Shown here in pieces: positions 5,578 through 41,250 of a stretch of DNA of 64,000 nt. The notes under the pieces are model-generated. The model was not told the DNA's origin. It saw only the letters and a program-made list of their open reading frames with translations, and ran no database searches. Positions within the stretch are counted from its first letter, which is position 1. Every line of letters begins with the position of its first letter. The position numbers and the translations under genes were made by a program. This DNA is from Takakia lepidozioides (taxonomy: Eukaryota > Plantae > Bryophyta): the NCBI GenBank assembly GCA_030704615.1, contig JAKLZA010000030.1, positions 1 to 64,000 of the forward strand, in the 5' to 3' direction.

Positions 5578-5779
5578 AGTGAATCCTCATGTATATCTTT
5601 GGCGCCACCTTGCTCATTGCTGGCCTCAGGGTCCTCAGACACTTGATCCACAGTCATCCCTGTTGCAGGTCCAACCTGGCCTTCCGCTGCCAAGATACAC
5701 AGAAATGCAGATGCATGCCATCCGGGCACCATCTCCTCGTCCGTCTCACCATGCCACCACCGAGCTCCAGTGTCATTGC

Positions 5780-10975: not shown

Positions 10976-11789
10976 TGAAAGAGAAGCTAGACTCCAAAGA
11001 TATTCAGCAAAAGAGAAAGTTATCTGAAAGCTCATTATCCATACCTGTGGGAGAGAGGAATAGACATTGGGGAATCATTTGGACCTCTCACACCATTGAG
11101 ATCAGGGAGTACATCACCTATACCAGAGGAGCTAGAGTTGGATACCACACCTTCTTTTTCTTTGCAAGAAAGATTAAGGGACTTGGCAGAGGAAGAAGAT
11201 CAACCACGAGGTGAAAGATCTGAGGGTACATCCCTGGATAAAAGATTTGGCAGAAATCTTTGATAAGAGTTGGCATGGAACACCAAGAGCAGGAACTCCA
11301 GTTTCGGGAGCAAAAGATGAGGATACAGAACCAGCGGAGAGTTCAAACTCTCCAACATTATTACAAAATAGTTACATGAGTGAAGAAGAAGAAAACCAAG
11401 GGCAGAACTTGGAAGATGAAAACAGGAAAAAGAAATTTGGAAGATGAGGAATATAAAGAAGTAGACCCAGCAGCTGAGGTTGAGGTTGAGACTACAACCA
11501 GGACATCCCAACCCGTTGGACCTGGATCAAGTGGAGCACTTGGATCACAGGCCAACGAAGTGTCGGCTCAGAGGGATCAGGCGAAAGACCTGGATCTGGC
11601 TCTGGGGGACAGGGAGTGTGGAAAGTAGTGCAACTGAGGCTGGGAATACTGTGAATATAGAAAGGCCAGGAGCAGGAAGGGCTCAGGGGCCAGTAATTGG
11701 TGGAAGAACCACCACAAATACTACAGGTCCACAGGGACCAGCATCAGCCAAAGGGCCAACAACTGTTAGGGGGCGGGTGTAGGGTTGCA

Positions 11790-14592: not shown

Positions 14593-15479
14593 TGTCGCGC
14601 GGCTTTTACTCACCCATCCCTTCGCTATCCGAGGCGGAAAACTCCAAGATAGAAGAGTTGGAAATCTCTAAGTACTCAGCCCGCTCAGAACAATCAGTCA
14701 TGACCTACAGCTAGTGTATCATGGGGGTGTTTCCTATTTGTTTCCCTTTCCACATTCATGTTAGCTACCTTACCATTGATAATTAAGTATCAGTTTGCTT
14801 CATCAATCTATCGGATTCCTTCAACTCATCCATTCATTCCACAGCTTCACTCAGATCTCTCTACACAGTGTGATTGTATCGTATAAGTATCAGATTATGA
14901 TTTATCAGGTATCAGGCCGAAGCCATTGTGTCTCTAATCTCCTCTACAATATCACTACAGCTCTGCATATAACAAGCATCTACTAATCATCTCTCCTCCT
15001 TCTCCATGCTTGCTTCCGTTCTTCTCTCCACCCGATCCCCTCTCCTCCATGACCAAGAAGTCCTCCCCCTCGAGTGCTTCCAAGAATAATCATCATCCCC
15101 CCTTAGTCCTTGCCTCTCCCTTTATCTTCCTACCCGTGGCTCTAACCGTTTCCCTCACTAACCGTCGTCCGGGAACTATCATGTTCCATTTGCAGGTGTT
15201 GTTCCCCACAGTCGTTCCCTGTCCTGCTCTCTGTTCCTATGGTCGTGACAGCTGTGTCAAGATGTGACCGCGACTGTGACTGTGTTGTGTGGGCTGTGTC
15301 GGCTGTGACGACTGTGACAGGCTGTGTCGGACTGTGACGGGCTATGTTGGGCTGTGTAACCCCCATCTACAGTGCGCTGCTGTCACCCCTAAGGCTCTTG
15401 TTGATCTCAGTCTGTGCAAAAATTAAGGGTACTCCTCAGATCCCATAAAAATGTCTAAGTCCCTGGCAGTCCTCTAACA
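14593..15479 (-). repeat. 3' LTR of an antisense copy of the same Tat/Ogre-like family
   Basis: Minus strand reads TGTTAGAG...CGCGACA. PPT TTTTGAGAGGGGAAGGGG at 15483-15500. Confidence 0.9.
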
Positions 15480-20139: not shown

Positions 20140-21215
20140 AGGGGCGTGAATCCCCTTCTGGTTAATCCTAAAATCTGTACTCCTCCTACTCGTCCCTGTT
20201 GAAGTATCAGGGCAAAGGAAAGGAGCGTTCTCTTTTCTGGAGGAAGATGGGATATAACGGTAGTAGACAACTATTTCAAGGAGATCACAAGCGACACCAA
20301 TGACAGCACTTCCATTTATTATGTGAGAGCTCTGTGTGGAGCAAAAGGCACATTTGTCCTGAAAGAAGAATCATTCAATGGTGCTTCCTTGGTGCAAAGA
20401 ATAGGAACCTCCTTTGCCTATGCAGGGAGGGGAGAACATACCGTTTCAACGGACGGGAGATATGACTTTGCTCGAGTGTGGCCTTGGACAGCTACACCAT
20501 TCAACAGGTTCCCAATTCACTTTCTCTATAGTCGAACCGACAGTCCATCATAGCATCATGAACTATTTGAGGATCAACCATTCATTTGAGAAATCACTTA
20601 AAGACTACATGGTTGATTGCAAGGATGATGCCAGTGCAATGGGTAGGGCATGGGAGAAACTTTTCACAGTTCATGTGGCCAAGCTGTTTGACGGGCAAAA
20701 TTGTTGGCCAATATGTGCTGTTTCAAGGATGCAACCCTGCCTCCAAAATTCGCAAGGGACAAGCCAATGATTACCCAGTGAAAGGAGTGTGGAGGGAGTC
20801 ATATAGGATCCACACCATAAGTAAATTTCTTGATGCTGAAGAGAAATCTCGTCCGCCATGCCTCATTTTTGACGACAGATCTGGAGCTGATGTTCTTTTT
20901 GTTGTGAGACTTGGGAATTTGAAGATTCCTGTCTTCTGTCAACTGAAGCTGCGATCTGAGGTGCAGTGGGCTAGAGCAGTGGCAACTACAGATCCGGAAC
21001 AGATGTACAAGAAAAGTTCCGAGTACAAAACGAGGGTGCTTGCCGCATGCAAAGATGGTTGCATCAGCTTGGTAGTTGCCTATCCTGCAAAGAAGCCAGC
21101 TAAACTCCAATCTGAATGCCAAGATAATCGTTTAATTGGCTATATTGGACAGGTAGAAGCGGAGGATTTGTTTGACCGCGTGTTATGTGATTTCTTACGT
21201 TCTATCAAGGAGTGA
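20140..21215 (+). pseudogene. Crinkler (CRN)-related C-terminal fragment with a REase-fold domain
   Basis: EPTV..., DASAMGRAWE, PCLIFDDRSGADVLFVV, PVFCQLKL, AVATTDPEQMY, SLVVAYP, EDLF. This is an E..D..QxK catalytic pattern. Confidence 0.55.
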
Positions 21216-21959
21216 TGGGGACAAATTTTGTGATGGCTCATGGAGTATTGAGAAGGTGAGATTCATTGGGATACTGGCTCTATTTTTTTGTGTTTGGTGA
21301 CATTTCTATATTCTCTTGTGCTGTCACACCTTTCCACAAGTATACTACTAAGTTAGACTGCTTCTGTATTCAACCATGGACCAACTTCAAGAACCTGTGA
21401 AAAAGGGACACAAATTAATGACAAGTATGTTTTCATGAACCAATCAATGAGTTCATCAGCTTTGTGTTACACTGCATGATACGATGGTGTGACAAGTTTG
21501 CAGGATATTCCAAAATTGGCCGTACTGGAGATACTGGTACCTCCTCCTCCTCGTCTGAGCTGTTGAGATCGACCACAGGTACCGATGGCGTCATAGCTGC
21601 AACAGGTGGCCTCACCGGAGCTGGTACATCCTCGTCCGAGCTGACAAGCTCGATCAGTGGCCTCGTATACTTCATACGAGGCATACTGGCAACCCTGCGA
21701 TATAAGAAGAAATAACATTAAGAAATTACCCAAAATACACACATCCAACTTTTGAATTGATCAAATATAGCACCTAATTGAACCCGATTCATTAAATCAA
21801 CATGAATTTTGATCTAGAAGGACCCACAAAAAATATAGACATATCAATGGATTTGCAACAAAAACACACTCAATATGCACACAAAAAAATTACCCCAATC
21901 GGACAATATTTGACCTAGATATGACCCCTTAAAGTTCGCTCACCTTACTGAAAAGGGTT

Positions 21960-23104
21960 TCCAACTCACTATTTGCTCATAACTTTTGTTTTACAAGGAA
22001 TTACAACAAGCGCCGCATACCATTGAATTCCCCACAAAAAAGCGCACAAGCTGCATACCCTGAATGTAAGAAATGACAAGATTAGGCCCCTAAAATGCAC
22101 TTTGAAAGTTGCTGACTTTTTAGACCAGGTTGACGTTTATGCTCATATCTTCCGTTCTAGGACGAATTAGAAGATGGGTAAGATACCAATGGATTCAACA
22201 CAAAAAGAGCCCAAGATGCATACCTTGAACGCACAAATCGACCAAGATTTGGTGTAGATATGCCACTTTGAACGTCGCAGATCCTACAAAAATGGCAGGT
22301 TCACATTTTTAGTCATAAGTTTCGATTTACAACGAACTAGAACGAGCACAATATACCATTAGATGCGTAATGAAAAACACACACAAATACATGCCTCGAA
22401 CTCGCAAATCGACACGATTTCGCTGCGATATGCCACTTTGAAAGTCGCTAATCCTACAAAAGAAGTCCGCCTCACAATGTTGCTTGTAAGTAGAGTTTTA
22501 CAAAGCATTAGGGTGAGCGCCACATACCATTGGATTCCCCTAGAAAAACTACACAAGATAGACACCTAAACTTTCCAAATTGACGAAGATTGCTTAAGAT
22601 ATCTCACTTTGAAAGTTGCTGCCTTAATTGGACCAAATTCAAAAAAGTCAAAGTCAACCCAAAGTCAACTCCTTAATATCTCCCAAGTGGCGAGGGATTA
22701 GGGAAATGTTTTTACATATTCGGAATCCTTATACCTTTAAATGGGGGGGTTAGGTCCATTCAAAACCACCAACAACCTCCAAATTTAGCCGCAATAGGCA
22801 TTTTAGGGTTTTCCCTTCAAACGCCTATATTTGCCAACTTTTTGACCTTTTTGCCAAAAAATTTCCACCATTGTCCTAATAATACCCACTACTACCACCT
22901 AGGTGTTTCAAATTCCAAAAAAGCTATATATAGGCCAAAGGTCAAAAAAAATAATGCCAAAAGTCAAATGTTCATATCTCACGAATGACGATACATTAGG
23001 AAATGTTTTTACATATTCGGAACCACAATATGCACAAATGGGGGGGTAGGTCACCTCAAAACACGAAAAAGAAAAAAAGGTCACTTTTTGCGGGAATGGC
23101 CATG
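21960..23104. mobile_element. Probable DNA-transposon end with degenerate subterminal repeats
   Basis: Four ~170-bp units (~21975, 22141, 22312, 22482) share ATACCA(T/A)T..ATT and CACTTTGAA. Two further units share AAATGTTTTTACATATTCGGAA..ATGGGGGGG.TAGGTC (~22700, ~23000). Confidence 0.55.
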
Positions 23105-23128
23105 TAATCCTAAACCTAAATCCTAAAC

Positions 23129-24270
23129 TTGTGCTATAGAAGAAGCGGAGACCCTCCCTATGGAACCGTCCATTGCTACACTCGTGAACGCGAGGTGGTC
23201 AAGGAAGTACTCAAGGAGGTGAAGAAGGTGGTGAATTCCATCCAGGTGAAACCTAAGGCTAAGAAGCTTGGGACAAACCTAAGGCGAATCCTGGCGGAAA
23301 GTTGGGAAACGGCTGTTAGAGGGCTGTTTGGGACTTAGATAATTTTACGGGTTTCTGTGGGGTACCCTTAATTTTGCACAGACTGAGACCAACATGAGAT
23401 TTTAGGGGTGGCAGCGCAGGCTTTAAGGGGGTTAGACAGTCAGACACAGCTCGTCACAGCTTCACACAGCCCGACGCAGCTTTACACAGGCCAGTCACAG
23501 CTCAGCACAGCTTAACCAGTCTGTCACGTACATGGGAACAGTTATCATTGACAGGGAACGACTGTGTGGGAACGACATCTACAGAGGGAGCGTGTTACTT
23601 CAGGAGTGAACGATTAGTTAGTTAGGTGATTAGAAACAGCTTGCGGGTAGATTAGCAGGGCGGCAACAGAAGAGGATCATTACTTGGAGGGGAGCACTGC
23701 TGGAGAAGGGGGAGACGTAACGGAGAACAAAAGAGTGAAGAGGAGAATCAGGACTGGAGTGAGGCGGAATTCATGCAAGCTGTAGGATTATATAGAAGGG
23801 GTAGATTAGAGACACCATGACATAGGCATGATACATGATAAGTCTTAATCTGATACTTATTCGATACAATCATACGGGTAGAAAGACTTGAATGAGCTGT
23901 GGAATAAATGGATGATGAATGGAACCTGATAGATACTGAAGCAATCTGATGCTTCAGTCATACACGGTAAGGTAAATTGATAACATGAAGGCAAGAAGGA
24001 ATACAGATAGGAAGCACAACCATGATTCACTAGCTGTAGGTCATGACTGATTGTTCTGGAGCGGGCTGAGTGCTTAGAGATATCCAACTCTTCTATCTTA
24101 GAGCTTCCACCTCGGATAGCGAAGGGATGGGTGAGTAAAAGCCGCTCGACAACGGCAAGCAGCTACCTCTTTCAACAAGAGGGTCAGGCCCGAACCGCAC
24201 AACCGGTTATGATACGGGAGGCCGGAAACCTTCAGCGAGGTCAACGGCAAACAGCCACAACGGCCATGCA
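23129..24270 (+). mobile_element. Short Penelope-like fragment (ORF1/linker), interrupted by the solo LTR
   Basis: VLKEVKKVVNSIQVKPKA matches 31598-31927 on the minus strand. Bounded by CCTAAA-like repeats. Confidence 0.7.
23314..24151 (+). mobile_element. Solo LTR of the Tat/Ogre-like family
   Basis: TGTTAG...CGACA flanked by a perfect 5-bp TSD ACGGC (23309-23313 and 24152-24156). Confidence 0.95.
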
Positions 24271-24399
24271 ATAAATCCTAAACCCTAAACAGACCATGCA
24301 TTAAACTCCTTCTCGAGTATTGCGTGTTAGATGAGCATCTAAGTCGTTCTCTACTGTGTCTATTCTCTAGCAAAAGAGATAGGGTATTATTCATTCATG

Positions 24400-26540
24400 T
24401 CATCTCAGTGAAATAGTTTCAATCACATATATTTGCCTTTTTGCATATATTTGCAGTTGCATCTTAGAACATCTCAACAAACACTTCTTTTTTAGCTTTA
24501 TGTCTCTCTGGATCAACGCTATTAGTTTTGATTCCCAGGATCTAGATATCTATTTTTTTTTGGTTCGGATTGTGTTCTTATTGCCCCGGTGCATTCGCGG
24601 TCCGCATCCTGTTGCACTGCTACATTTGTCTCCACTCTTTTATAGACCCTAAACCCTCAACCCTAAACTTTTTCGGAGCATAACCGGGCCCCCCTAAAAA
24701 CTTTTTAGTTTGCACTGTGCTATTATTGCACCCCGGTGCATTCGCGTTCCAATTTGTTGTACTGCTACATTTGTAGTTCCAATCTTTTGTAGGCCCAAAA
24801 TGCACAAACCTGTAGTGGTTGGGAGACCAATTTGTTCGTACAATGGGTACGTTTCTGAGCACGCATCCAAGTGGTTACATTACCATTTGTTTCCTATTTT
24901 ACTTCAGGAACGTAATCATTTGATAGATTCAATTTCTTTGTTGAGAGATCTGTCGAGTAGACAACTTCCTCGAGATGTGTTTCTATTCACCTTTGATGTG
25001 GAGTCATTGTACCCTAGCATTCCTACTGGGGACGGGCTTCGACGATTGAAGGACATGATTACCGACAAGCTCAAGTCACCCCGGTTTGAAGGACTCGACG
25101 TGAGTCTTTCTCCATGGTCTTGGAGAACAACTATCTTCAATTTGGCTCGAGCTATTGGCATCAGATCCGAGGCACTGCAATGGGTAGGCATTTTGCTGTT
25201 GTACGCTTGTCTCTTTCTTTGCAGCTTAGAAAGAGAGTTGGCTTGCGCAGCAAGAGGTATATGGCCTTTGTACTACAAGAGATACATCGATGACGGATTT
25301 TGGAATCTGGGAAGGATCTTGGGCAAGTTTGGAGACTTGGCTCGATCGATACAACTATCTCAGTCCCACAATTCGCATTCAAAGGGTGATCTCTGACTCT
25401 ACTGTTGACATTCTTGATATTCAATTCTTCAAGGGAGCTGATTTTGTCAATAGTGGGATTCTATCTTCGAGATGTCATCAGAAGGCACTCAACAGATATC
25501 GGTACTTGCCATGGACGTCCTGTCATCCGCGACACCAAAAACGACCATTCATCCTTGGTGAGCTACGCCGATACACTTTGAGAGAAAGCACATGTGCAGG
25601 TTTTTCAGAGATCAGACGACTATTCTATGAACGACTGCGTGCTCGAGGCTATCCAAAGTCTTTTATCTTAGAGTGTTTTAGACTATGTGACTATGCACAA
25701 CGTGCTACACTGTTAGCTTCAGAATCCACTCGTAAGTTGATGGGTAAGCGGACCCCCTTGGTTCTGAAACTTGAGCATTTTCGATATACTCAGCTCTAAA
25801 AACTTGGGGAGTCCTAAACCCTAAACTGCATGAGCATCTTCTGAAAGTTCCGCAGTTAGCATCTTTTGACAAACCTATGGTTTGTTGGAAAAAAACGAGG
25901 AATATTACGTTCCTATTTAGTTCGTGCTAAGTTACAATAGAGTCAATTATATTGAAGGATATATTCTTGGCTTACATGCATAAGTTGGAAAAAGTTTTTT
26001 TTTTTTTTTAGATAAAAGACCTTTTTCTTGGCTAAAGGAGATATTCTTGGCCTTACAGGCATAAGTTGGAAAAAAACTTTTTTTTTTTTAGATTTTTTTT
26101 TTTTTCTCGGCTAAAAAGATACTTTTTGTTGTCTTTTTATCTTATGCTCTTTTTTTAGACAACACTTATTCGACAGTATATAAGCTGGCGGTGAGGCTCA
26201 TTGTACTTCTTTCCATTTCTTTCTTCCCACTGAAGAGCTCAAATTTGAGCGAAACTAGTCTGGGGCTTATAAGATTTGCCAGTATCTCATATAAGTGTGT
26301 TTTGTCTCACTTTCTTTTCTCTTTGTGTTGTTGTACCTTACAGTTGCATTGTTTAGGACTGTCTATCTAGTCATGCCTTTGCTGCTAGGTTTTGTTCTCT
26401 AGTGCGTGTTTTTTCTTCCATAAGAGATAGGTTTTTGTTATCCTGTATTTACGGTGAAACAGTCTCAGTCATACACTTTAGTCATTTGCATGTCTTTGCA
26501 ATTGCACTTTAGAACATACAAATCTCTCATATCCTACCTA
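24400..26540 (+). mobile_element. Endonuclease-less Penelope-like element copy A, internally deleted. Its 3' repeat continues at 29931-30105.
   Basis: PKMHKP..GRPICS, FDVESLYPSI, YKRYIDDGF, LPWTSCHP, RLRARGYP. Ends LVRAKLQ* at 25940 with no GIY-YIG domain. Near-identical to 36090-37280. Confidence 0.88.
26226..26264 (+). ncRNA. Minimal type I hammerhead ribozyme
   Basis: CCCA-CTGAAGA-GCTCA(AATT)TGAGC-GAA-ACTAGT-C-TGGG. Intact core, stems I and II, palindromic stem III, GUC cleavage site. Confidence 0.9.
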
Positions 26541-29500
26541 AGGTAGCGACATTTAAAAGTGTGCGTTGCCTTTATCTGTTCCCCTATTTTTGATGATGAA
26601 TAAAGTCACCCTTTTCATCCTAGTACTGTGCACTTTTGCAATGGAGGTAGTTCAAGGTTCATTATTACTTTGGATTAGGTACACTAGTGGGTGTTTTTGG
26701 AGTACAAGGGATTAATTAATGGTGGATTAGTGAAGCTAATTAAGCAGCCGACTAATGATTCTCATTTCAAATTCCTCATTTGTTTTTGAAAGTGGAGGCG
26801 GGTGTTTTTGGACAACGGCCAGTTAATACAGCAGTCAGGCATGAATGCAAATAGGATGCATGGTTCACTCTATATACTACTATAGTGCACACACTTTATC
26901 ACACTTCAGTTTACTACAATAGCAATTCATGGAGCGATAGACATGGATTTCTGTCCTAGCTAGGCATTCAGATTACTACCAGACACAGAGGAGGAACACA
27001 ATGCTACCCAAGAGCACGATAATGATAGTAGTGATCGTGAGAGTGAGGAATCTGGAGGTACTAGACAGCAGCCAGGGCAAAGAGGCAAGGGATCTGAGGA
27101 CGATGAGTATGAGAATTTTGCATGGGCACAAGACCCAGCCGAGGAGTGGACGGAAGTGCATTATGCAGCTGGGTCAGAGGACCGGTTGTAGTTCCAGATC
27201 AGACACCTGCTAGGGAATCCCCACCACCAATCGATGTAACTCCAGTCTTGAGACGAGCATCCCAGCAAACACCTACAAGGAATTATGGAGGGCCCCAATT
27301 ATATGCAGCCGGGGAAGGGATCAACTCACGTACAGATCGGGTGCTCGGCCCCGCCAAATGGCAATTGGAGTGACCAAGCTCTTGCTGGCGCCTTGGCAGC
27401 AATCGAGGCTGGGTCGTCAATCCGGGGTGCTGCAAGGCAATTCACCATACCTACAGCTACTCTACGGGCCCACATGTATGGAACCATTCGTAGCAGATGT
27501 CGTGGCAAACATGGGGTTATGAGTGATGAAGAAGAACGATTGTTGGTAGCATACATTGAGAGAATGCATGACGTAGGGCATTCATTGACACTAACTCAGA
27601 TCAGATTGAAGATGGGTGAGATCTGTCAGCTAAGGATTACACCGTTCGTCAATGGAATACCTGGTTTGGGATGGCTACGCTGGTTTAGGAAGACACCCTC
27701 ATCTAAGCCTACGAGTTGCTCAAGGTCTGGAGCAGGGAAGGGCCAAGGGCCTCTGCCAAGAGAACGTTGACAGCTTCTATGCTAACCTAGGCGATCTATA
27801 CAACAAAAACAACTACGACCAAGAGCGGATTTGGAACTGTGACGAGTCGGGGGCGCAGGCAGGAAGAAATGGCGGATCTCGCATGGTGCACTCCATTTGT
27901 CCAGATGAGAGGGAGTGGCTCTTCGTATTGACCTGCATTAATGCAGCAGGTAGTTCAATTCCTAATTTTTAAATTTTCAAAGGCAAACGCTTTCGTCGTA
28001 TCTACATTGAGAGATGTGAGACGGGGGCCACAATGGCAATGCAACCAAAAATGGATGACAGGGATCATATTCTCTAAATGGATCCACAGGCATGGGCAAC
28101 GAGATTACAGAGGAGAGGAGACATCTGCTGATCCTTGATGGCCATAACAACCATGTCACAATCAATGTTGTCCACCAAGCTAGGTCAGTTGGACTCGATC
28201 TGATCACGTTGCCATCCCATACATCGCACGCACTGCAACCTCTGGATGTCTCCGTATTCAAGCCCTTCAAGACTGCATTTCAAAACTACAGGGATATATG
28301 GAGTATAGCAAACAAAGGGAAGCCAGCAAAGAAAGAGAATCTGGCGCAATGGGTTTCTTTGGGATTGAAGAAGGCACTGTCAGAAGTCAACATTAAAAAA
28401 TGATTCTCCACCACCGGGATCTGGCCTCTACGGCCTACTGCAATGGCAACAAGATGGGGCCATCATCTACTTTTGCACAAGATCCACCTGCAGAAGATCA
28501 AGATCACACAGCGAAGACAATCAATCACATGAGGACAAGCAACCGGATCCAGCCATTGAAGAGGTGATAGGCAACATGGTTCCCGAAACCCAAGAGGAAT
28601 GTATGCACTACTATGTGCATATGGAGGATGATGACGGGCCCACAGATCAGGCCCCTAATGATGAGAGCAGCCTGGAATCCCAACCACTTGCCCGAGACCA
28701 GGAGCTCTCGATGCTCGCATTCACGGGTCCCACTAGTATAGCCAGGTTTCTCACCCTTGCGGAGGCTCCTGCACCCACTAGAAGACGAACGACTCAAGAT
28801 GGGCAAGTGTTAATCGATTACTCCAAATCCATAATTATGACCAGCGACGACTACGTCAACTCCCTTGAGCAGAAAACACGACTCAAGGCGGAAGCAATTG
28901 CAGCCAAAGAGAAGAAACAAGAGGACCAGCGCATTGCACGGGAAAGAAGGTAGTAGAAAAATTAGCCAAGCAAGAGGCGACTCGGATCAGAAAGGAAGAA
29001 GCGGCAGCAAAGAAAGCATATGACGCACAATGGACAAACAAGGCATTGGGGAGTATGGCGATCGCTTGCAGGCACTGATGAAGTCGGGGGCCCATTAGGC
29101 ACCATGCCCCGTTCTGTGGATTGATTCTGAACATATGCAGGTATAACCAAGCCATGGCAATCCGGCAACGTCGAGCAAAGAAAAATGGTGAAGACACCAG
29201 CCAATTCGTCACCGTGGCTTCTAGTTGGGCACACGGGCATCAGTTACATGGGGTCCCACACTTGACACCACATAGGGGGTGTGATTGACGGAAGACAGTG
29301 AGAGCATGCATAACTGAAGACACCCTAAAGTCCACGAACAAGGAGGAGCAGGTCTGTGGCAGGAGTTGCCTTGGAATGGCGGGGAGAATGGGAAATGAGG
29401 GGGTTTTGGAGTCTTCCAGGTGTGTCTCTGGGATGGTTACTTTAAGGTTCTAAGATGGCCATGTCTGAGGATTTGTAGGTCATCTAAGGCAGATTTAGGG

Positions 29501-29930
29501 GTTCTATTTGATACCTGAATGGTCAGATTTTGCGCAAGTTGTGATTCATGCAAGGTAAGTTATGGGTGCTTCCATAGGTAGATGCACGGATTTCCCTGTT
29601 GGGAGGTGGGTACATCTGGGCCCACACATGGCTTGGTTTTGGTAATTTTGAGAAAGGTGTAGGTGCACACCTTGTGCACTCATGACACCTTTAAGCGCAT
29701 GTCAAGGAACAATGTATGGCATTACAGGAGGGACCTACTGAGCAGAAGTGGGATAATATGTACTTTGACTTTGATAATTCATATATAATACATTAATGAT
29801 TGGAAAAATTATGTGCTTTACACAACAGAGTGCTGCTTCATTTGCTATTCAACTCATGTAATTTTTGTGGACACCGCACCCTTTGAGCATTGCACACTAC
29901 TTAAAAGCACACTTTTAGATGTCGCTACCT
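26541..29930 (+). mobile_element. pogo/Fot1-like (Tc1/mariner) DNA transposon, full length
   Basis: 24-bp TIRs AGGTAGCGACAT(T/C)TAAAAGTGTGC with a TA TSD. An empty site is visible at ~34050-34060. Confidence 0.93.
27285..29100 (+). CDS. pogo-family DDE transposase (HTH_psq, CENP-B HTH, DDE_1), frameshifted
   Basis: SIRGAARQFTIPTATL, IWNCDESG, LLILDGHNNH, LPSHTSHALQPLDVSVFKPFK. Confidence 0.9.
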
Positions 29931-30105
29931 TATGTCTTCATAATCATCTCTTTGAGTTTTTCTATAGACATCTTGAAGTTTTTTCCAGAGCATAACCCCC
30001 CCCCCCTAAAAACTTTTTAGTATGCACTGTGCTACTATTGCACCTGATGCATTCGCGGTTCAAATTTGTTGTACTGCTACATTTATAGTTCCAATCTTTT
30101 ATATA

Positions 30106-30153
30106 CCCTAAACCCTAAATTCTAAAACCCTTAAACCCTTAACCCTAAACCCT
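30106..30153 (+). repeat. Degenerate plant telomeric repeat (CCCTAAA)n at the junction of two PLEs
   Basis: CCCTAAACCCTAAATTCTAAAACCCTTAAACCCTTAACCCTAAACCCT. Confidence 0.8.
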
Positions 30154-33100
30154 CGAGTGTACGAAGAGTAGTCGAGCTTAAGAACAAGGGGGCCCGTTTA
30201 CCCTCAATTGCGCGTTGCGTCTGTTGGTCGAGTAGAGAGGATCTGAGGTCGTAGGAGATCTTTGGTGAAGCAACTCCAGATGAACGCCGCTGGATAACCT
30301 CAGGCTCGAAGACGTTTGTTAAAACAAAAGTCGCAAATGGTTGAACCCTTGGATGGTGCTTTCTCGTACTACATACCGTTGGAGCTCGCCGATGACGAAG
30401 CTTTCTTTTGGTGATGTGGATGCCACGAGGACCAAGGCAAGTATTGATACTTGTTCTGGGCCTTTTGATGACATCTAGTAGAGCGCCGTCGAGTTTGGAT
30501 GAAGTCGTCTCCTTTGAAGAAGATGATATCCAAGATGTCGCGGACGTCGGGCTTATGGCGGTCGTGATTTTGATGCCATCAAACATGGAACTGTAGTTCC
30601 ATAACCAGGCCGGAGGCTCTTTTCGGAGCCTACCCAGATGCCAAAGCCATCGTCGATATAGCGCTTAAGATAAAGCAGCTCTTGCTCCGATGGGCACACG
30701 TACTCCATGTACATCTCCAACCGACAAAGGAACAAACAAGCATAAACAACTGTAAAGTTGCTCCCCATAGCCATCCCGCGAATTTGGTGCCAAAAACTAC
30801 CATTGAACTCAAGGTAATGGTGTTTCAAGACTAATCCAGCGAGGGTCATGATCAGGTCTGTTTTGTGTTTTGGTGAAATTACCTCCAATAGCACATTCGA
30901 GCTCATACAAGCCGAGCTCGGTGATGATGCTGGGATATAGAGATTCCACGTCAAACGCAAAAAGAAGAGCATGCGAGGGGACCTCAACCTCTCGAAGAAG
31001 CGTGAGAGAATCAACCAAATGAGTGGATTCCTTGAGAGGTACCGGAATTGGTGATGGAGCCAAATTGAAGCATGCTCGAAGATGTAGTTGTTGTAGGAAC
31101 AGATGGTCTTCCAACAAGCACGGGTTTGTGCACCTTCGGAATGAAGTACAAAGCACAAGCTCGAAAGTCCATGGACGACCGAGGGCGTTGGCGGATGTAA
31201 TTCCATTCTTTGGAGATCGCAAACCTGTAGATTGGATGGCAAGCTAGCAACTCGGCAGACAAGGTCGTGCATTGCGGACGATTCGATCCAAACGGCTAGA
31301 CAAAGATCATTACCTTCTCGAATGATGGCCTCGAGTGGTTGAGATTCCACTGGTGGATTGAATGATGGATTCGGAACGCGCCAAAGAGGAACCTCATCGT
31401 TGTCTTTGCCGGAGAAGAACGTTCGCAACCTCAAGCTTTGAGCAAAATTGTTGAATTTGATTGAAGGGGAAGGGGAAGAGGACGAGGATGTAATTGAGAC
31501 CAAGGCCCATGAGTTGTCGCTCCGCAAAGGAGAGAACCCTCTTGCTATAGTTGTGGATAGCAGGTTGGTGACCTTGCATTCCACTTGGGAGGGAGTCCTA
31601 GCGTAAGCCTTCGGGTCTACGAGCAGGTACCAGAAGAGACTCCTCGTGCGCCCCCGCGTCTGTGAGGAGGTATGTATGGCCGTTTTGATCGTCGTCGTCG
31701 TCGTTCGTCGTCGTCCGTCCCTTCCGGCTCCCTCCCATACCAGAACGGTTCGGGCCTGACCTCGAAAGAGGTAGGTGCAGAACGGGTGATACCTGCTGCT
31801 TGCCCTTTCCGCCAGGATTCGCCTTAGACTTACTAGCCGGTTTGGTCCCAGGCTTCTGGGCCTTAGGTTTCACCTGGATAGAATTCACCACCTTCTTCAC
31901 CTCCTTGAGTACCCACTCGCATTTCACGAGTTAGCAATGGTTCCACAAGGGGTCTCCGCTTCTTCCATAGCACCTTCCGAGCAACGTTGTGAGCGGCGAT
32001 AGCCGCGGCCTTGCTAACGTCGGAAAGTTGTTTGTGAATGAAATGCATCTACATGAGTAACAGAGAGATTGCTAAGATGAAGATGCCATGACTCAATGGA
32101 AGACTTAGAATTGTCACCTATTAAATTTAAGGATCGTAAAGGCAAAATCAAATCCGAGAGGCGAGTCTCAAAGACTGGTTTCAATTGCTCGAGCTTGTTG
32201 GGCAAACTAGCAAGTCGAGATTCTTGGGCTTTGATAAGTGCTTGAAAGCACTTGATCCAATATGCGGTTGTGCATTCGGCCAGGCTCGCATCAAGGACGG
32301 ATTGGGCCTCAGGATCTCCTATTTGAAGTTTAGGAGGACTCATTCTAAGGGAGTTGGGTGTGGTGTCTTCTTCGAATTGCACTCGCAATTTTTGAAGGTA
32401 CTTGGAAGTCTTTTCATGCTCATGCCTAAGACTTTTGAATTCCTTGACCGATGTATGCACAAATGCAAGCAAAGGGGGAGGAATGGAGATATCCATGTTA
32501 GAAGAAGAAGACGCGGATGCATGAGAATGGCCGACGCCTAAGCTAGGACATGGACGTTTGTTACCTGCTAGTTTCGCCATCGGAAAAAGAGTTTAGGGTT
32601 TAGCGTGGTCAACAAAGGTAACAAAAAATAGAAAAATACTGGAAAAAGACACAGTAATTGTTAAGGGGGGCCGGTTCAGACCCAAATACAAATGCAATGG
32701 AAACCAAGACAAATTCATACAAAGTACGCCTATCGTGCCTAAAGGGATGCTATAAGACTATTATGTCTTATGCAAGGACTCCCGCCCTCACGAGATAAGG
32801 TTCTCTATTGAAGAATGAGGCACTTTTGCTCCAACCGCAAGTTTTTTTAAGTTTGCATCTCCTTGTTTAGCGACAAAATCTTCCTCACTATGGGCAAGCA
32901 TGCGCTCAAGGCAATCACAAACATAAGGTCAAGTCTCAATCCCTAGTTGGAAAACTTATATGCCCCACCTTCAAAAAGAGGTTCGTACCTCTAAGGAAGA
33001 ATGGGAAGGATTACCGCATAAGGTCATCGACAAGAAGGTTAGGTCGGCAGAGGCTTGCGCATGCCCATAGTCCTCTGATCGCTCGAGATGAACTCGAGGG

Positions 33101-33905
33101 AGGATCAACCAAGTCCCTTCTCTCCGACCATCGGGCGTACGATAGGGGGAACCATGTAGTCGGGGCTAAATTAGCTTGCCCGACACGATTACCATATACC
33201 TCCAGCCGCCTTCCCCATTGTAAGCGGTGGCTAAGATGGCGTCAAATGGAAGGCTCTATACGCCCATGCTTCAGAGAGAAAAAGGCCTCGGAAGTATCCA
33301 AGGGTTGGGATTCCCCTTGGAGCCGAGCACCCCTTCGATCCAAGTTGCCCGGGCGGGCAAGGACTAGACTCTCAACTCTCGACTTCTCTAAGTGTGGAGA
33401 CACAAAAAGAGTAAAGGTGTTTTATTCCAAACAAGTTTCGCTTGATTGCTCAACCTCATCAGTGAAACACCAAGAGATGAAGTCCTAAGAGCCAAGCCTA
33501 TCTTTATATACTAGAAAAGCACCCTCACTATGTGCAAACGATATGGGATAATTCCCAAGGCAATAATAATGCCACTAAGCACTAATTTAGCCTCCAAGTC
33601 AGACTGCATTAATTAGTCAATGGTCCAAATTAATTGTTGGAACCCTTTGACTTTAACGTCAATACTAGGGCTATCAAAGAGGAAAAATTAATAATGCTAG
33701 GGACATTTGCACTACAAAATCATCCTATCATTCTAGATTTAACTAGAAATGAACTCAACTTTCGCGGATTCCTCCAACAAATCATTGCTCGAGGAAGAAA
33801 CCAAAGCTCTGGGACTTGCTGAAGCAACTTGTAGAGTCTAGGGTTTAGGATGGCCCCCCAAGTTCAAGGCTCGAATGTACGAAGAGTAGTTGAGCTTAAG
33901 AACAA
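30154..33905 (-). mobile_element. Endonuclease-less Penelope-like element family B in partial tandem: RT tail + 3'UTR/HHR of one unit, then ORF1 + RT of the next
   Basis: 33905-33721 encodes the RT C-terminus (..MICWRNPRKLSSFLVKSR..*). Coiled-coil ORF starts at 32580. RT motifs PKVHKP, FDVESLYPSI, GMAMGSNF, RYIDDGF. 33871-33905 duplicates 30153-30187. Confidence 0.85.
33425..33467 (-). ncRNA. Minimal type I hammerhead ribozyme with one stem II mismatch
   Basis: Minus strand TTTCA-CTGATGA-GGTTGA(GCAA)TCAAGC-GAAAC-TT-GTT-TGGAA. Confidence 0.8.
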
Positions 33906-33984
33906 TAGTACCCTATCTCTTTTGCTAGAGAATAGACACAGTAGAGAACGACTTAGATGCTCATCTAACACGCAACACTCGTTA

Positions 33985-36900
33985 GTCATACACTTTAGTC
34001 ATTTGCATGTCTTTGCAATTGCACTTTAGAACATATCAACATCACTCATATCCTACCTATGTGTCTTCAGAATCATCTCTTTGAGTTTTTCTATAGATAT
34101 CTTGAAGTTTTTTCGAAGCATAACCGGCCCCCAAAAAACTTTTTAGTCTGCACTGTGCTATTACTGCACCCGGTGCATTTGCGGTTCCAATTTGTTATAC
34201 TACTACATTTATAGTTCCAATCTTTTGTAGACCCTAAACATTTCATATTATGTTAGCTACAACTTCTGAACCTTTATCGCGTCCCCGCATAGAGAGGATG
34301 CTGGTGGTGATGGTAATCGACCATCGTCTTTTTCTCCAATTCGGGAGTGTTCTTCTTCGAGACCACGAGTGGGGATGTTTTTCAACAAACGGGATCACAC
34401 TCCACCTTTGTGGAGGCTACTCAAAAGTTACTGGACTTCTTTCATACAATACAAGAAGGATTTTAAAAGATTGCAACGTCTCAAAGCAACGTCGACCGAC
34501 TCAGATCTCAAGAAGTTGCTGGTAAAATCCCTCAAGCTTGTAGAATTCTAAGCTTGTGATTTCCTCTTTGGCCGTTCAACCTTCCCTCGATGCAAGCATT
34601 CAATCAGCCACTCTTGCTTTCCATGACACTTTACAAAAAGCCTTCATCAAGGCTTCATGTGGAGGTGTTGGCAGAAGCAGAAGCCACTTTGAGCAAATCA
34701 TCTGATCTTTTCATTGCTCGACTCCAGGAGATCAGATCCCATGTGGATGTCTCTTCTTGTCTTGACAATGATGAGGACTCTAGTTGGATTTTCGAGGAGC
34801 TTGAGTTTATATGCAATGAAGCCACCAAGTCTTGGTTTGCTGGAATCTCTTGTTTTCGTGCTAACCACAACTTGGCAACCGCTGTGAGGGAAAAGCTTTG
34901 CGTGAAAGGAACCGCGCTAAGGATGCCGCCATGGCAGATGCTGATGTTCTTCCGTGCGAGCCTTCCATTGTCAAGCTTGTTAGGAAAGAGGTGCAGAAGC
35001 AATTTTCCTCCAAAGGGAATAAGTCTTCTCTCTCCCCTAAGCAACAACAACGACCGCGTTCTTCTTCTCCTAACCGTCAGAAGCAACGGCAACGTGGCCG
35101 CTCAATTGCTCGTCAAGCTCTAAGGCTCAACCTACAAGAGCACTTCACCAAATGCCAAAGCAAGTTCTTTCAAGCAACAGGGAAATGGACAACAGCGGAG
35201 TGTGATTGCTCGCATCCGTTCCGCTGCATCGCATTTCTCTTTTCCGAGAAAATCCGCCCTACATTCTCAGACCCCTCATGGTTTTGGCAAACAAAAGTCG
35301 GGGCAAAGCCCACAACAGAAGCCCAAAAAGAAGGTAACTTGGGTAGGATCAAATCGAAAAGAGCCCGCAAGCTCTTTTGGTGGCAGTTGAGGGATGTAGA
35401 GGCTTATAAGCTTTGTCTTTTCTCTTGCAAGAGAGTCTCTCAAGTAGAGAATAGGTTAACCAATGTGATCATCCATAACATGGCCAATCGACCATTTTTG
35501 TTTTTTGAAAAGAAACTTTTAGGCTTAGGTTTGAGCTTCATTCCACATCCTACTCCTCCGTCTACTACTATTCTTGATGCTTATGAGGCTTTTCCTCGAC
35601 CTTTACATCTTCGACATCACTTCCGTGATGCTAGAGATAGACCCATTCCTCCATTTAGAGTCCCTAACCCTTCTTGGGATCAGTGTGTACGGCTTCCTGC
35701 TTTAGAAAATATCATTGCAGACGGTCGCGACATTGTAAAGCCTCGCTTCAAGGATGTGGCTCGCTCTGCCTTCAAGTCCTCTATTCGAGGCCATCTCAAG
35801 ACCGCAATGCGTGCTCTGACTACAGATGACTCCATCGTCATCAAACCCGCGGACAAAAATCTTGGGTTGGTGATCATGCGTAAGGATTGGTACATGGATG
35901 AGGCACACCGCCAACTCCACGATGGACATGTTTATGAATCTGTGGCAGAGATTCCATGGGACAATCTCAAGTATGATTTGGATGCAGTGCTCACTTCTGC
36001 TTTTATGCGGGGATTAATCGACAAGCAAGAAAAGGATTTTTTGGCTTTCAAGCCCCAAGGGGGCTACCGACCCTACATGTGCTATCTTGTGCCCAAAATG
36101 CACAAACCTGTGGTGGTTGGGAGACCAATTTGTTCGTACAATGGGTACCTTTTTGAGCACGCATCCAAGTGGTTACATTACCATTCGTTTCCTATTTTGC
36201 TTCAGGAACATAATCATTTGATAGATTCAATTTCTTTGTTGAAAGATCTGTCGAGTAGACAACTTCCTCAAGATGTGCTTCTATTCACCTTTGATGTGGG
36301 GTCATTGTACCCTAGCATTCCTACTGGGGACGAGCTTCGATGATTGAAGGACATGATTACCGACAAGCTCAAGTCACCCTGGTTTGAAGGACTCGTCATG
36401 AGTCTCCCATGGTCTTGGAGAACAACTATCTTCAATTTGGCTCGAGCTATTGGCATCAGATCCGAGGCATTGCAATGGGTAGCAATTTTGCTGTTGTGTA
36501 TGCTTGTATCTTTCTTTGCAGCTTAGAAAGAGAGTTGGCTTGCGCAGCAAGAGGTATATGGCCTTTGTACTACAAGAGATACATCGATGTCAGATTTGGA
36601 GTCTGGGAAGGATCTCGGGCAAGTTTGGAGACTTGGCTCGATCGATACAACTCTCTCAGTCCCACAATTCGCATTCAAAGGGTGATCTCTGACTACTGTT
36701 GACATTCTTGATATTCAATTCTTCAAGGGAGCTGATTTTGTCAATAGTGGGATTCTATCTTCGAGATGTCATCAGAAGGCACTCAACATATATCGGTACT
36801 TGCCATGGACATCCTGTCATCCGCGACACAAAAAACGAGCATTCATCGTTGGTGAGCTACGCCGATACACTTTGAGAGAAAGCACATGTGCAGGTTTTTC

Positions 36901-37283
36901 AGAGAGATATGAACGACTGCGTGCTCGAGGCTATTCAAAGTCTTTTATCTTAGAGTGTTTTAGACTATGTGACTATGCACAACGTGCTACACTGTTAGCT
37001 TCAGAATCCACTCGTAAGTTGATGGGTACGCGGGCCCCCTTGGTTCTGAAACTTGAGCATTCTCGATATACTCAAGCTCTAAACCTTGGGGGAGTCCTAA
37101 ACCCTAAACTGCATGAGCATCTTCTGAAAGTTCCGCAGTTAGCATCTTTTGACAAACCTATGGTTTGTTGGAAAAAACGAGGAATATACGTTCCTATTTA
37201 GTTCGTGCTAAGTTACAATAGTCAATTATATTGAATGAGATATTCTTGGCTTACAAGCATAAATTGGAAAAAGAACTTTTTCT
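33985..37283 (+). mobile_element. Endonuclease-less Penelope-like element copy C, near full length
   Basis: The leader matches the 3' repeat of copy A. Coding region 34250-37221 contains LGLGLSFIP, IKPADKNLGLVIM and GIAMGSNFA. YIDD is mutated to YIDV. No endonuclease. Confidence 0.88.
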
Positions 37284-37284
37284 T

Positions 37285-38300
37285 TTTTAATAAAAGACCT
37301 TTCCTCGGCTAAAGGAGATATTCTTGTCTTAACTGGCATAAGTTCACATTACTCTAGACACTGCTATGCCCACAATTCAACTTCATTATACATCCCTAGA
37401 AAATGCTTGGGACACAAGCCCACAAATTCATCTCCTCAACCCCGACAACATACCCCGTAAACAAACCACTCTAAAATTCTTTATGCAATTTAACATCACC
37501 ACAATTAGACAACTCACAGATGCTAATGGCACCAAACTTATCGACCCACATGCTTTTCGACTAAAATACCCCAAACCACCATCGCGTTCCCAACATGTTC
37601 ATTTGCAATACCTCCAAACACTACTATGTTTTCCCACTCCTGCATGCATAGCACACATTTGTTCAAGACAATGTAACTCTTCTCCCATCATCCATGGGAG
37701 CTGCTCCCTCAATATTCATCGAGGCCGGCGCAAAACCAAATCCAAGCACTATTTCATGGCTGCCCTAAACCCAACAAGCGTCCGTTCCACACAACCACAA
37801 GCACCCTAGCCGCAACCAACCCAACCAATTGCTACATCATCGCCATTTGTTGATCACCCCGTAAGACACCCCGTAACACCCATCCACACATTAGATGAAA
37901 TACAAGGTATAACTCAAACAATGTCATCGGATCAATATGGAGCCACATGTGTCAAAACTCTGTATAATTGTCAATGGAAGGGAATACTCCCAAACGTAAC
38001 ACCTGGGAAAACAATGATTATCTTTTTAACACCCACGGAAACCCCAATCTACACCATAATATTCAGATGGTTACCGAACACCACCGACGAACCAATTATC
38101 GCATATTCATACCCAACACGCAGATGAACCACAAACCAGTGATAGACGCTTCATCAGCCCACCAAGAAGTATCCCAAATCTACACATCTCTATAGCTGAA
38201 TGTAAACCAGATAAACATCTTGAAGTCTCAACCCCACATTCACACTCATAATAACTTGGCACACATATATGGTCCACTAGGGTACTACATTGGTAGCATT
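37285..38300 (+). mobile_element. C/A-rich retroelement coding fragment, possibly a LINE, with a chromodomain-like segment
   Basis: Strong C/A strand bias and ORF remnants. Across a frameshift it reads LYNCQWKG..PKRNTWENNDYL. Confidence 0.35.
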
Positions 38301-41250
38301 TGTTAGAGGGCTGCTTGGGACTTAGACGCTTTTACGGGTTCTGTGGGGTACCCTTAATTTTTGCGCAGACTGAGACCAACAGGAGCCTTAGGGGTGGCAG
38401 CAGCAGGCTTAGGGGGGTTACACAGCCCGCCACAGCTTCGCACAGCCCGACACAGCCCATCACAGCCCGCCACAACTTCGCACAGCCCGACACAGCCCGT
38501 CACAGCCAGTCACAGCCAACAGCCCGACACAGCCGACACAGCCGCCACACAGCCACACAGTCACAGCCCGACACAGCCTTACACAGCCAGTCACAGCTTG
38601 ACACAGCCTATCACAGTACATAGGGAACAGTTATCATTGACAAGGAACGACTGTGAGGGAATGACATCTGCAGAGGGAACGGGTTACTTTAGGGATGACG
38701 GTTAGTTAGTTAGGTGGTTAGAACAGCTTGGGGGTAGATAAGGAGAGCAGCAACGAAAAGAATGACACTTCACGGGGGAGCGCTTGGGGGTCATGCATGA
38801 GAGGAGATCAGGCGGAGAGGAAGAAGGAGAGCACGGAGAAGCAGGAGAGATGAACAGTAGATGCTTGTTACATACAAAGCTGTAGTGATACTGTAGGACA
38901 GATTAGTGTCACCATGGCATCGCCCTGATAACTGATAAATCATAATCTGATACTTATTCGATACAATCGCACTGTATAGAGAGACATTAGTGAAGCTGTG
39001 GAATGAATGCATGATTCACTGGAATTTAGTAGATACTGAAGCAATCTGATGCTTCAGTATAACACGGTAAGGTAAATTGATAACATGAAGGCGAGAAGGA
39101 ATACAAATAGGAAGCACAACCATGATACACTAGCTGCAGGTCATGACTGATTGTTCTGAGCGGGCTGAGTGCTTAGAGATATCCAACTCTTCTATCTTGG
39201 AGTTTCCACCTCGGATAGCGAAGGGCTGGGTGAGTAAAAGCCGCCTGACATTTGGCGACCATACTGGGGAACTGGGTCATGAACAGCCAGATATGACAGA
39301 CATCTGGTGGGATCATGGTGGTTGGAGAATTAAAGAATTTGATGTGAATCAATTTCCCTGTGAAACTGAGAAGGAAAGATTGTCCAAACAATTCTTTCAG
39401 AGGTTCTTGGAATTGCCAGACGGTTGTAAGGAAAACATTCTTAAGAGAATGCATGATGCTGATCCCGAGTGGGGTCTGGAGAAAGGGGTGATAAAGATTT
39501 ATCAGGTGGCCTGTAGAGGAAGAGCACGTTGGTTACCAACACTGGTTTATGTGATAGCATTGCTATCCATTAAGCGAGTAGAGTTTGAAGGCTGGGAGGA
39601 AAGTAAGGTGAATGTTTATACTCATATGCATGAGGAGCTTGTACTGGTAAAGAATTGGATTCCAAAGGATATTTTGTGGATCAAACTCACACCAAGAACA
39701 ACTTTCCAGACTTGTTTGCCATATGGTTATATGGTAACGGAGACTTCTAGTATAGCCAAGGGCATGGAAGCTTGAAAGAAACCCAAGCATATATGAGAGA
39801 TACTACAGAAGAGAGTTTTGGTTATTGCCACATTAAAGAAATGAAAGACATGGGACATGAGTGATGAAAGAGAAGCTAGACTCTAGAGATATTCAGCAAA
39901 AAGATAAAGTTATCTGAAAGCTAATTATCCATATCTTTGGGAGAGAGGAATAGACAAGGGGAATCATCTGGACCTCTCACACCATTAAGATCAGAGAGTA
40001 CATCATCCATACCGGAAGAACTAGAGTTGGATACCACTCCTTCTTTTTCTTTGCAAGAAAGATTAAGGGAATTGGTACTGGAAGAAGATCAACCACGAGG
40101 TGAAAGATCTGAGGTACATCCCTGGATAAAAGATTTGACAGAAATCTTTGATAAGAGTTGGCATGGAACAGCAAAAGCAAGAACCAGTTTCTGAAACGGA
40201 AAATGAAGAATGAGGAGAGGATGTGGCAGAGCCAACGGAGAGTTCAGACTCTCCAACACCGTTGCAGTTGAGTTACATGAGTGAAGAAGAAACCCAAGGG
40301 CAGAACTTGGAGGATGAAAACAGAGAGAAGAAACTGGAAGAGGAAGAGTATGAAGAAGTATACCCAACAGCTGAGGTTGAGACTACAACCAGGACATCCC
40401 AACCCGTTGGACCTGGATCAAGTGGAGCACTTGGATCAGAGGCCAACGAAGGTGTCGGCTCAGGGGGCAGCCTGGATCTGGCTCTGGGGGGACAGGAGTG
40501 TGGGAAGTAGTGCAACTAGAGCTGGCCCACCAGTACTTGCCAGGGGGGGAGTTGTTCCACCACTCAAGGTCCTCACCCACACGCCCCCAGTCAAGTCAAG
40601 GGGGCACCAGCAAGGTTCAATGGGCAAAAGGTAGGGCCACAAATGGCGTTACAACCAACACGGGCAAAACCACCTTTTCCAATATATTTAGGAAAAGGGG
40701 ATCCTGATGTACACATTAGCCAATTGAGCACATGTGTATTGTGAACAATGAGAATGACGATGATGCCAAGATGAGACTGTTTCCTTGTTCACTTATCAAG
40801 AAAGCAAGTGAATGGTATGCAAGATTCCCTGATAATCATTTCCTAACCTGGAATGGCTTGAATACAACATTCCGAAATAGGTTCAGGACAAGTAAAACTG
40901 AGGATGAAGTGTATGGAAATTTACAACAGTTAAAGCAAAAGAAGCATGAAACTGTTGAGGAGTATATGGAAAAGATGGAATTGATGGTGAAAAAGCTGGC
41001 TGCTGTACCAGCATCAAGTTTACAGAAGACTTGGTTTGTGAGTGGACTATGACTAGAGTTGCAAAAGAAAGTGGATATGTTACCCCATAATACAGTGGAG
41101 GAGGCATTTGAAACAGCGAACAGAATTGAGCAATTGGGAATGCTCATGAGGGAGAAAAGGGATGATGAGGACTCTGAGGATGAGTCAGATGAGGAAGAAG
41201 AGCAAGAGCTAAAGGAAGAGTAAGAGGAATGAGAAGTTGAAGAGGGATAA
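38301..41250 (+). mobile_element. Tat/Ogre-like copy 2: 5' LTR 38301-39250, PBS, upstream ORF 39143-39775, truncated gag
   Basis: Collinear with 9605-12400 and ends abruptly after the acidic stretch of gag. Confidence 0.9.

What the first reader, a model, noticed from the sequence alone, without database searches (positions are those of the whole stretch)
23105..30153. Chain of endonuclease-less Penelope-like pieces joined by CCCTAAA repeats: a fossil of telomere-primed retrotransposition
Seen: C-rich telomere-like tracts at 23105-23128, 24272-24290, 24647-24668 and 30106-30153, all in the same polarity and each at a junction between PLE segments. The RT ORFs stop at LVRAKLQ* with no GIY-YIG endonuclease. 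Known: endonuclease-deficient PLEs are thought to prime on G-rich telomeric 3' ends using C-rich repeats in their RNA. Inference: successive additions onto a chromosome end or healed break growing leftward, now interstitial and about 12 kb or more from host genes.
Basis: partly seen in the sequence, partly recalled or inferred. Interest (0 to 1): 0.7.

Follow-up and report, generated by a model that had tools for sequence, protein, structure and literature searches.

The report
Nested telomere-type retrotransposons inside a chromosome
These are broken copies of two plant jumping genes that lack a DNA-cutting enzyme and carry telomere repeats; paired repeats at their joins suggest they likely pasted into one another at internal DNA breaks rather than piling up on an old chromosome end.

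Summary
The four CCCTAAA-like tracts are real, share one polarity and exceed chance. The RTs end with no GIY-YIG domain. The pieces belong to two decayed families (A, B) of two-ORF, hammerhead-bearing, endonuclease-less Penelope-like elements. They group with Selaginella, Ginkgo and Cryptomeria RTs, and metagenome relatives run into pure telomere repeats.

The 'growing chromosome end' reading is only partly supported. One to two repeat units are a fixed part of each element. The two left tracts share an 11-nt lead-in and a variant unit found nowhere else in the window, so they look like one tract duplicated around a B fragment. The right tract joins a whole opposite-strand B unit flanked by a 36-bp direct repeat. 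The other copy of that repeat carries an inverted piece and a second A copy. That fits one A-into-B insertion with a long target duplication, later permuted by tandem duplication or a circular form. Both DNA ends were therefore likely kept.

The kind of element is known; the insertion anatomy is unusual but inferred from one locus, with no genome or synteny to test. The scan noted similar elements in other genomes.

The parts
23098..23128 (+). Left copy of a duplicated target: GGCCATGTAAT lead-in plus telomere-like tract
   Evidence: not in intact B ORF1
23129..23313 (+). Family B ORF1 fragment, 5' part (residues ~205-269 of intact ORF1 P0215, 89-93% identical)
23314..24151 (+). Solo LTR of a Gypsy-like family, later insertion, 5-bp duplication ACGGC
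24157..24267 (+). Family B ORF1 fragment, 3' part, ending at GGCCAT, which also begins the right target copy
24262..24290 (+). Right copy of the duplicated target: GGCCATGCAAT lead-in plus tract with the same AAATCCTAAAC variant
24291..24668 (+). 5'-truncated 3' UTR of a diverged A subfamily (A'), ending in about 3 CCCTAAA units
24669..24800 (+). Last ~130 nt of the A terminal repeat, joined to the RT at GCCCAAAA; either A1's own 5' repeat after a 1.86-kb deletion or a separate add-on
24793..25940 (+). A1 RT remnant (residues 238-616 of P0001), 5 frameshifts and 1 stop, ends LVRAKLQ*, no endonuclease
25813..25826 (+). Telomere-like CCTAAACCCTAAAC inside the RT coding sequence (codons LNPK)
26212..26284 (+). 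Type I hammerhead ribozyme motif in the A 3' UTR
   Evidence: Rfam HH9 E 0.14, below gathering score; core pattern
26541..29930 (+). pogo/Tc5-like DNA transposon inserted at TA in the A 3' UTR
   Evidence: HTH_Tnp_Tc5 and DDE_1; inverted ends
29933..30105 (+). Rest of the A1 3' UTR
30106..30153 (+). A1 tail, about 6.7 partly degenerate CCCTAAA units, in register with B sequence by 2 nt
30152..30187 (+). 36-bp direct repeat, copy 1 (B RT coding sequence)
   Evidence: 34 of 36 identical to copy 2
30152..33905 (-). One circularly permuted unit of family B plus 36 bp: RT C-terminus, 3' UTR, CCCTAAA, ORF1, RT
32592..32605 (-). Element-encoded CCCTAAA x2 between B 3' UTR and ORF1
33405..33480 (-). 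Hammerhead motif in the B 3' UTR
   Evidence: core pattern; no Rfam hit
33870..33905 (+). 36-bp direct repeat, copy 2
33904..33981 (-). Inverted 78-bp piece of A'-type UTR (97% to 24314-24391)
33982..37344 (+). A2: 5' terminal repeat, one CCCTAAA unit, ORF1, full-length decayed RT ending LVRAKLQ*, 3'-truncated UTR

Best explanation
This is a decayed nest of two endonuclease-less, hammerhead-bearing Penelope-like retrotransposon families that likely built up by break-primed insertion into one another at an internal site, with both DNA ends likely kept, rather than by serial addition to one chromosome end. Step 1 (inferred): an A RNA was copied at a staggered break inside a B element. One end primed on the RNA's CCCTAAA tail in register; the other primed inside the UTR and gave the 78-bp inversion; the 36-nt overhang became the direct repeat. 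Step 2 (inferred, weakest): the A-in-B unit was tandemly duplicated, or B was circular when hit, so the two junctions now face outward around one B unit and A appears twice. Step 3 (inferred): a B RNA primed internally at GGCCAT on a staggered break at a short telomere-like tract and duplicated that tract by 22-31 bp. Step 4 (shown): a solo LTR and a pogo element inserted later. The original left tract and the extra tail units likely come from telomerase, from RT slippage, or from an RNA read through a telomeric donor array.
For: The 36-bp repeat (34 of 36 identical) is B coding sequence and has an A junction on the outer side of each copy; the unit between is 3718 bp. The polarity matches a 3'-overhang cut, with 2-nt matches at both primers. 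The inverted piece ends about 27 nt from where the direct repeat begins in UTR coordinates, which is the twin-priming layout (model seen second-hand in PMC2246262). AAATCCTAAAC occurs exactly twice in 128 kb of both strands, once in each left tract. The 11-nt lead-in with up to 1 mismatch occurs at 4 places, 2 of them these. Intact B ORF1 holds neither tract. A1 and A2 differ by 49 of 1250 sites, share the window allele at 2 of the 10 sites checked against run contigs, and both have a -1 frameshift at codon 341-342. No duplication spans the whole block (best 8 nt with 1 mismatch).
Against: The 36-bp pair faces outward, so an unobserved duplication or circle must be added. At 6 of the same 10 sites A2 matches the run contigs, not A1, and the shared frameshift is as parsimonious as two events. 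The inverted piece is A'-type (97%) while the direct repeat is A-type, so one RNA must have been a mosaic. The left pair needs a 9-nt slippage, and its statistics are post hoc. No empty site was seen. Long duplications have no known cutter in an element without an endonuclease. Relatives behave as ordinary telomere-attaching elements.
Confidence: 0.55

Rival explanations
1. One reading: a chromosome end or healed break inside B grew leftward by serial telomere-primed additions and telomerase caps, and was later internalised.
For: All pieces in 23105-30153 are co-oriented. Tails have 3 and 6.7 units against 1 in the element's own 5' repeat. The left tract sits at a 5' truncation. Relative L020 shows a 5'-truncated copy capped by about 15 repeat units. 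Internalised chains are proposed in PMC6431247 section 8.
Against: It leaves the 36-bp repeat, the inversion and the twin left tracts as coincidences (my rough estimate is about 1% for two independent ends falling within 36 nt of a 3.7-kb unit). An opposite-strand B unit sits between A1 and A2.
Confidence: 0.25
2. B is the insert: a hammerhead-made circular B RNA was copied for one turn plus 36 nt into the joint of an existing A1-A2 tandem, primed by the C-rich strand.
For: B is exactly one permuted unit plus 36 bp. Removing it leaves co-oriented A copies. Circular templates were proposed in PMC4209133. About 61% of B 3' UTR depth runs on into ORF1 (7970 of 13112).
Against: It needs a break exactly at the tail-head joint. 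It does not explain the in-register G-strand junction or the position of the inverted piece.
Confidence: 0.1
3. The layout is decay and rearrangement debris (deletions, ectopic recombination) or a local misassembly, and the direct repeats are chance.
For: All copies are heavily decayed (13 lesions in the B RT). No contig spanned the block, and at the 10 sites checked no run contig carried A1's allele.
Against: A1 and A2 differ by 3.9% plus indels and a pogo insertion, so they are not a collapsed or doubled read. Two separate repeat pairs sit exactly at junctions.
Confidence: 0.1

Closest known systems
Coprina-clade EN-deficient PLEs, including Selaginella moellendorffii Sm1/Sm2 (Gladyshev and Arkhipova 2007, not held; seen second-hand in PMC8557442 and PMC13159263)
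   Same: RT with DKN motif and thumb, no GIY-YIG; upstream ORF1; C-rich telomere repeats on the sense strand; type I hammerhead in the terminal repeat (PMC4209133); RTs fall in one SH-aLRT 99 group with a Selaginella protein.
   Different: Interstitial, nested in opposite orientations, with apparent 22-36 bp duplications and a 5' inversion. B contigs reach about 150 times the depth of low-copy contigs, whereas PMC4522978 calls such elements low-copy. No named Coprina sequence was in my tree.
Athena/Terminon chains of bdelloid rotifers (PMC6431247 section 8)
   Same: Co-oriented 5'-truncated pieces joined by short telomere repeats; hammerhead plus C-rich 3' end.
   Different: Units of about 4 kb, no accessory ORFs. 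The telomere repeat lies 484 nt (A) and 856 nt (B) downstream of the hammerhead, not next to it.
EN+ Penelope/Neptune insertions (PMC3846280 passages)
   Same: Partial tandems, inverted 5' repeats, target duplications, insertion into another PLE in the opposite orientation.
   Different: Those encode GIY-YIG and show 8-10 bp duplications; that paper says EN-deficient PLEs do not share this organisation.
PLE-X (EN-less Chlamys) of Selaginella and Chara (PMC8557442 section 9)
   Same: No endonuclease, hammerheads, internal insertion in plants.
   Different: No CxC motif and no longer A-B' spacer here (58-63 aa, as in the C-terminal EN+ homologues). The target is not rDNA, and telomere repeats are present.
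Interstitial telomeric sequences made at double-strand breaks (PMC2246262 passages)
   Same: Repeats in register with the break end; target duplications can occur.
   Different: Here the repeats come attached to retroelement cDNA.

Membership tests
Penelope-like elements | PLE-type RT with DKN motif, RT core and thumb | tested here: met
   ADKN in A2, YIDD in A1, whole-length match to intact 600-625 aa homologues. Pfam gave no hit on the broken pieces.
Penelope-like elements | Partial-tandem terminal repeat upstream of the ORFs | tested here: met
   33982-34239 repeats the A 3' end (89%); B UTR runs into B ORF1
Penelope-like elements | Hammerhead motif in the terminal repeat | tested here: met
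   The only 2 pattern hits in both strands of 64 kb lie in the A and B UTRs; 21 of 32 related families have one on the sense strand and 3 on the antisense. Rfam score below cut-off; folding z-scores weak. Cleavage untested.
EN-deficient PLE (Coprina/Athena type) | No GIY-YIG endonuclease | tested here: met
   Own profile: none in window 22000-38300 or in 76 loci (best E 2.4); found in 16 of 214 proteins, none among the 33 best hits
EN-deficient PLE (Coprina/Athena type) | C-rich telomere repeats on the sense strand at the 3' end | tested here: met
   A and B ends; relatives: 13 of 32 families sense only, 1 antisense only, 18 none
EN-deficient PLE (Coprina/Athena type) | Location at or near chromosome ends, sense towards the centromere | not testable with these tools
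   No genome held. This locus is internal to the window and holds both orientations.
Coprina clade | RT groups with named Coprina elements | tested here: inconclusive
   Groups with an unnamed Selaginella RT and gymnosperm RTs, apart from 14 EN+ rows (quick tree, 68 rows). No named Coprina, Athena or TERT sequence was available; that the Selaginella protein is Sm1/Sm2 is my inference.
Terminon | Giant multi-ORF unit with telomere repeat directly after the hammerhead | tested here: not met
   Units about 4 kb; 484 and 856 nt between hammerhead and repeat
PLE-X / Chlamys | CxC motif and insertion in fingers; rDNA target in spike mosses | tested here: not met
   No CxC before motif A in A2 or 8 EN-less homologues; A-B' spacing 58-63 aa; no rRNA hit in 21000-39000

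The most novel reading that the evidence does not exclude
Endonuclease-less plant PLEs integrate inside chromosomes at staggered breaks with 22-36 nt overhangs, and this locus records one such insertion into a circular DNA copy of another PLE, giving a genomic footprint of a circular PLE intermediate and of a telomere-independent route for this group.
Probability: 0.2. Interest if true: 0.7.

Novelty: new variant of a known kind. Interest (0 to 1): 0.42.

Why it matters
How endonuclease-less PLEs obtain a priming end away from telomeres is open (PMC8557442 section 9 leaves it unresolved for PLE-X). Long target duplications with twin priming would point to staggered breaks and give a signature that can be counted genome-wide. 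A seemingly high-copy, near-identical B family with an intact ORF1 in another sample would make this testable in a plant. A 2025 review names only Selaginella for telomere-associated PLEs in plants (PMC12477314), while the clade here includes Ginkgo and Cryptomeria proteins. If the repeats are chance, this is an ordinary decayed Coprina-like cluster.

Tried and rejected
No genome is held, so mapping and synteny were not possible. No RNA holder was listed. Laying contigs on B's 3' end showed where 61% of the depth goes (ORF1) but not the rest; one loose end was uninformative. No contig spanned 22500-34400. Pfam found nothing on the PLE pieces. The PDB search gave only E 0.038 to an RT, so no TERT reference was obtained. 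The careful tree did not finish and the quick tree is reported. Rejected: tract 24272-24290 as part of B ORF1 (intact P0215 reads YVPPHRR there); a target duplication for the whole block; Terminon and PLE-X membership. Unresolved: whether 24669-24800 is an add-on or A1's own 5' repeat (diagnostic sites 9 versus 6), and whether the codon-341 frameshift is shared. Earlier-findings look-ups by place and by sequence returned nothing. Seven paper searches showed no report of long duplications for EN-less PLEs or of this clade in gymnosperms. The three key papers (Gladyshev and Arkhipova 2007, Arkhipova 2017, Lin 2016) were not held and may cover these points; no supplements were read.

Full report
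Observation. In 60 shuffles of the region none reached 24. A fifth tract (25813-25826) lies inside the RT coding sequence. The RT ends in LVRAKLQ*. A GIY-YIG profile from six EN+ homologues hits 16 of 214 fetched proteins but nothing in window 22000-38300 or in 76 related loci. The RT stops 211 residues after motif C, as in EN-less homologues. More than half of the stated range is later insertion: a solo LTR with an ACGGC duplication and a pogo-like element at TA.

Identity. Self-comparison shows two families. Family A has a truncated copy (A1, 24793-30153) and a near-complete copy outside the finding (A2, 33982-37344). Family B has an ORF1 fragment on + (23129-24267) and one whole unit on - (30152-33905). 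Each has ORF1, an RT, a 3' UTR with a hammerhead motif and CCCTAAA just before ORF1. The two hammerhead pattern hits are the only ones in the window; Rfam sees the A motif at E 0.14, below its cut-off. The best homologues are mostly 600-625 aa EN-less RTs, among them Selaginella, Ginkgo and Cryptomeria proteins. A quick tree of 68 rows (3 window, 65 picked from the 214 fetched) places A and B with them at SH-aLRT 99, apart from 14 EN+ rows. No named Coprina, Athena or TERT sequence was available, so Coprina membership is likely but not shown. The host is likely a land plant (inferred from these homologues, the repeat type and the subtilase genes).

Relatives behave as telomere elements. Among 76 metagenome loci in 32 families, perfect telomere-like runs are sense-only in 13 families, antisense-only in 1 and absent in 18. 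L018, L046 and L075 end in pure repeats. L020 is a 5'-truncated copy (99% to L016) capped by about 15 units. Many loci come from related contig sets, so they are not independent, and their hosts are unknown.

What the tracts are. One unit in A (34231-34239) and two in B (32592-32605 in the run contigs) are fixed parts of the elements. The tails at 24647-24668 and 30106-30153 are natural A 3' ends with extra units. The two left tracts are not in intact B ORF1. They share GGCCATG(T/C)AAT and the variant AAATCCTAAAC, which occurs exactly twice in both strands of the window. GGCCAT is also where the B fragment ends. I read this as one tract duplicated by 22-31 bp when a B RNA primed there. The test is post hoc and needs a 9-nt slippage.

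The right junction. The A1 tail joins B coding sequence in register (AG|GGTTTAGGG on the minus strand). The next 36 bp recur at 33870-33905 (34 of 36), one B unit (3718 bp) away. The second copy is followed by a 78-bp inverted UTR piece and then A2. The inverted piece ends about 27 nt from the start of the direct repeat in UTR coordinates. These are the two junctions expected of one A insertion into B with a 36-nt stagger and twin priming, but they face outward. A tandem duplication of the A-in-B unit, or a circular B target, would explain that. A1 and A2 differ at 49 of 1250 sites. Of the 10 A1 sites listed (714 more rows of that table were not shown), A2 shares A1's allele at 2, matches the run at 6, has a third allele at 1 and a gap at 1. 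Support for duplication is therefore weak.

Mechanism. Shown: the anatomy, the absence of an endonuclease, the fixed repeat units, the direct repeats and the later insertions. Inferred: priming at staggered internal breaks by telomere-repeat or short homology, twin priming, and the permutation step. Untested: ribozyme cleavage, circles, genome-wide position and the source of the extra repeat units. I put this at 0.55, the end-addition chain at 0.25, a circular B RNA insert at 0.10 and debris or misassembly at 0.10.

Known and new. Telomere-priming EN-less PLEs with hammerheads are known, also from Selaginella. I read: PMC8557442, passages and section 9; PMC4209133, first two of four parts; PMC6431247, passages and section 8; and passages of PMC13159263, PMC3846280, PMC12477314, PMC7943196, PMC4522978 and PMC2246262. 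Target duplications and inversions are described there for EN+ elements (8-10 bp). Seven searches showed none for EN-less ones, but the 2007, 2016 and 2017 primary papers were not held and no supplements were read. Earlier notes of this scan describe similar elements in other genomes; I did not test them.

Verdict. A real feature of a known kind of element, with an unusual but single-locus insertion anatomy. Interest 0.42.

Noticed in passing
window 20203-21215 (+): Two overlapping frames, the second 214 codons, no Pfam hit. Atlas features match unnamed eukaryotic clusters (0.95-0.97) and weakly an RHSP cluster (0.83). It lies 1.9 kb left of the finding.
   Followed up: partly
window 25813-25826, 37096-37109, 33832-33849; L013:2149-2162: The RT thumb codons L-N-P spell a telomere-like CCTAAACCCT in both families and in L013; LNP is kept in Selaginella and Cryptomeria RTs. 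One run contig joins an A 3' end to this site (table 5c).
   Followed up: partly
L015-L030, L003-L012: Long degenerate CCCTAA-like stretches lie upstream of the RT, where ORF1 is expected, in several related families.
   Followed up: no
proteins P0004, P0015, P0177, P0207, P0005, P0007, P0012, P0017, P0129, P0245: EN-less RTs of the same group in Ginkgo, Cryptomeria and Picea records.
   Followed up: partly
window 30152-33905; runs X1, X3, X5: B contigs have depth 4081 (X1) and 8376 (X3) against 21-33 and 51-69 for the lowest-depth contigs; A has 766 and 1465 (the tool warns that depth is no copy number). An intact B ORF1 (P0215, 92%) sits on a 4053-nt contig.
   Followed up: partly
L068:1-123, L071:3-86, L075:3743-3791: Distant relatives end in other repeat types, (CCCTAATAA)n and (CCCTAA)n.
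   Followed up: no
window 21700-23097: Low-copy repeat with ~170-220 bp internal units forming the left flank; type not identified.
   Followed up: no
window 37345-38300: C- and A-rich coding remnant to the right of A2, no Pfam hit above cut-off; not identified.
   Followed up: no
window 3399-15479, 38301-41250, 62872-63986: Several decayed Gypsy-like elements, one with a PHD-finger-like motif (4186-4890, motif recalled), and four LTR copies 68-81% alike.
   Followed up: no
window 42114-44115 and 52376-55365: Two subtilase-like genes in tandem.
   Followed up: no
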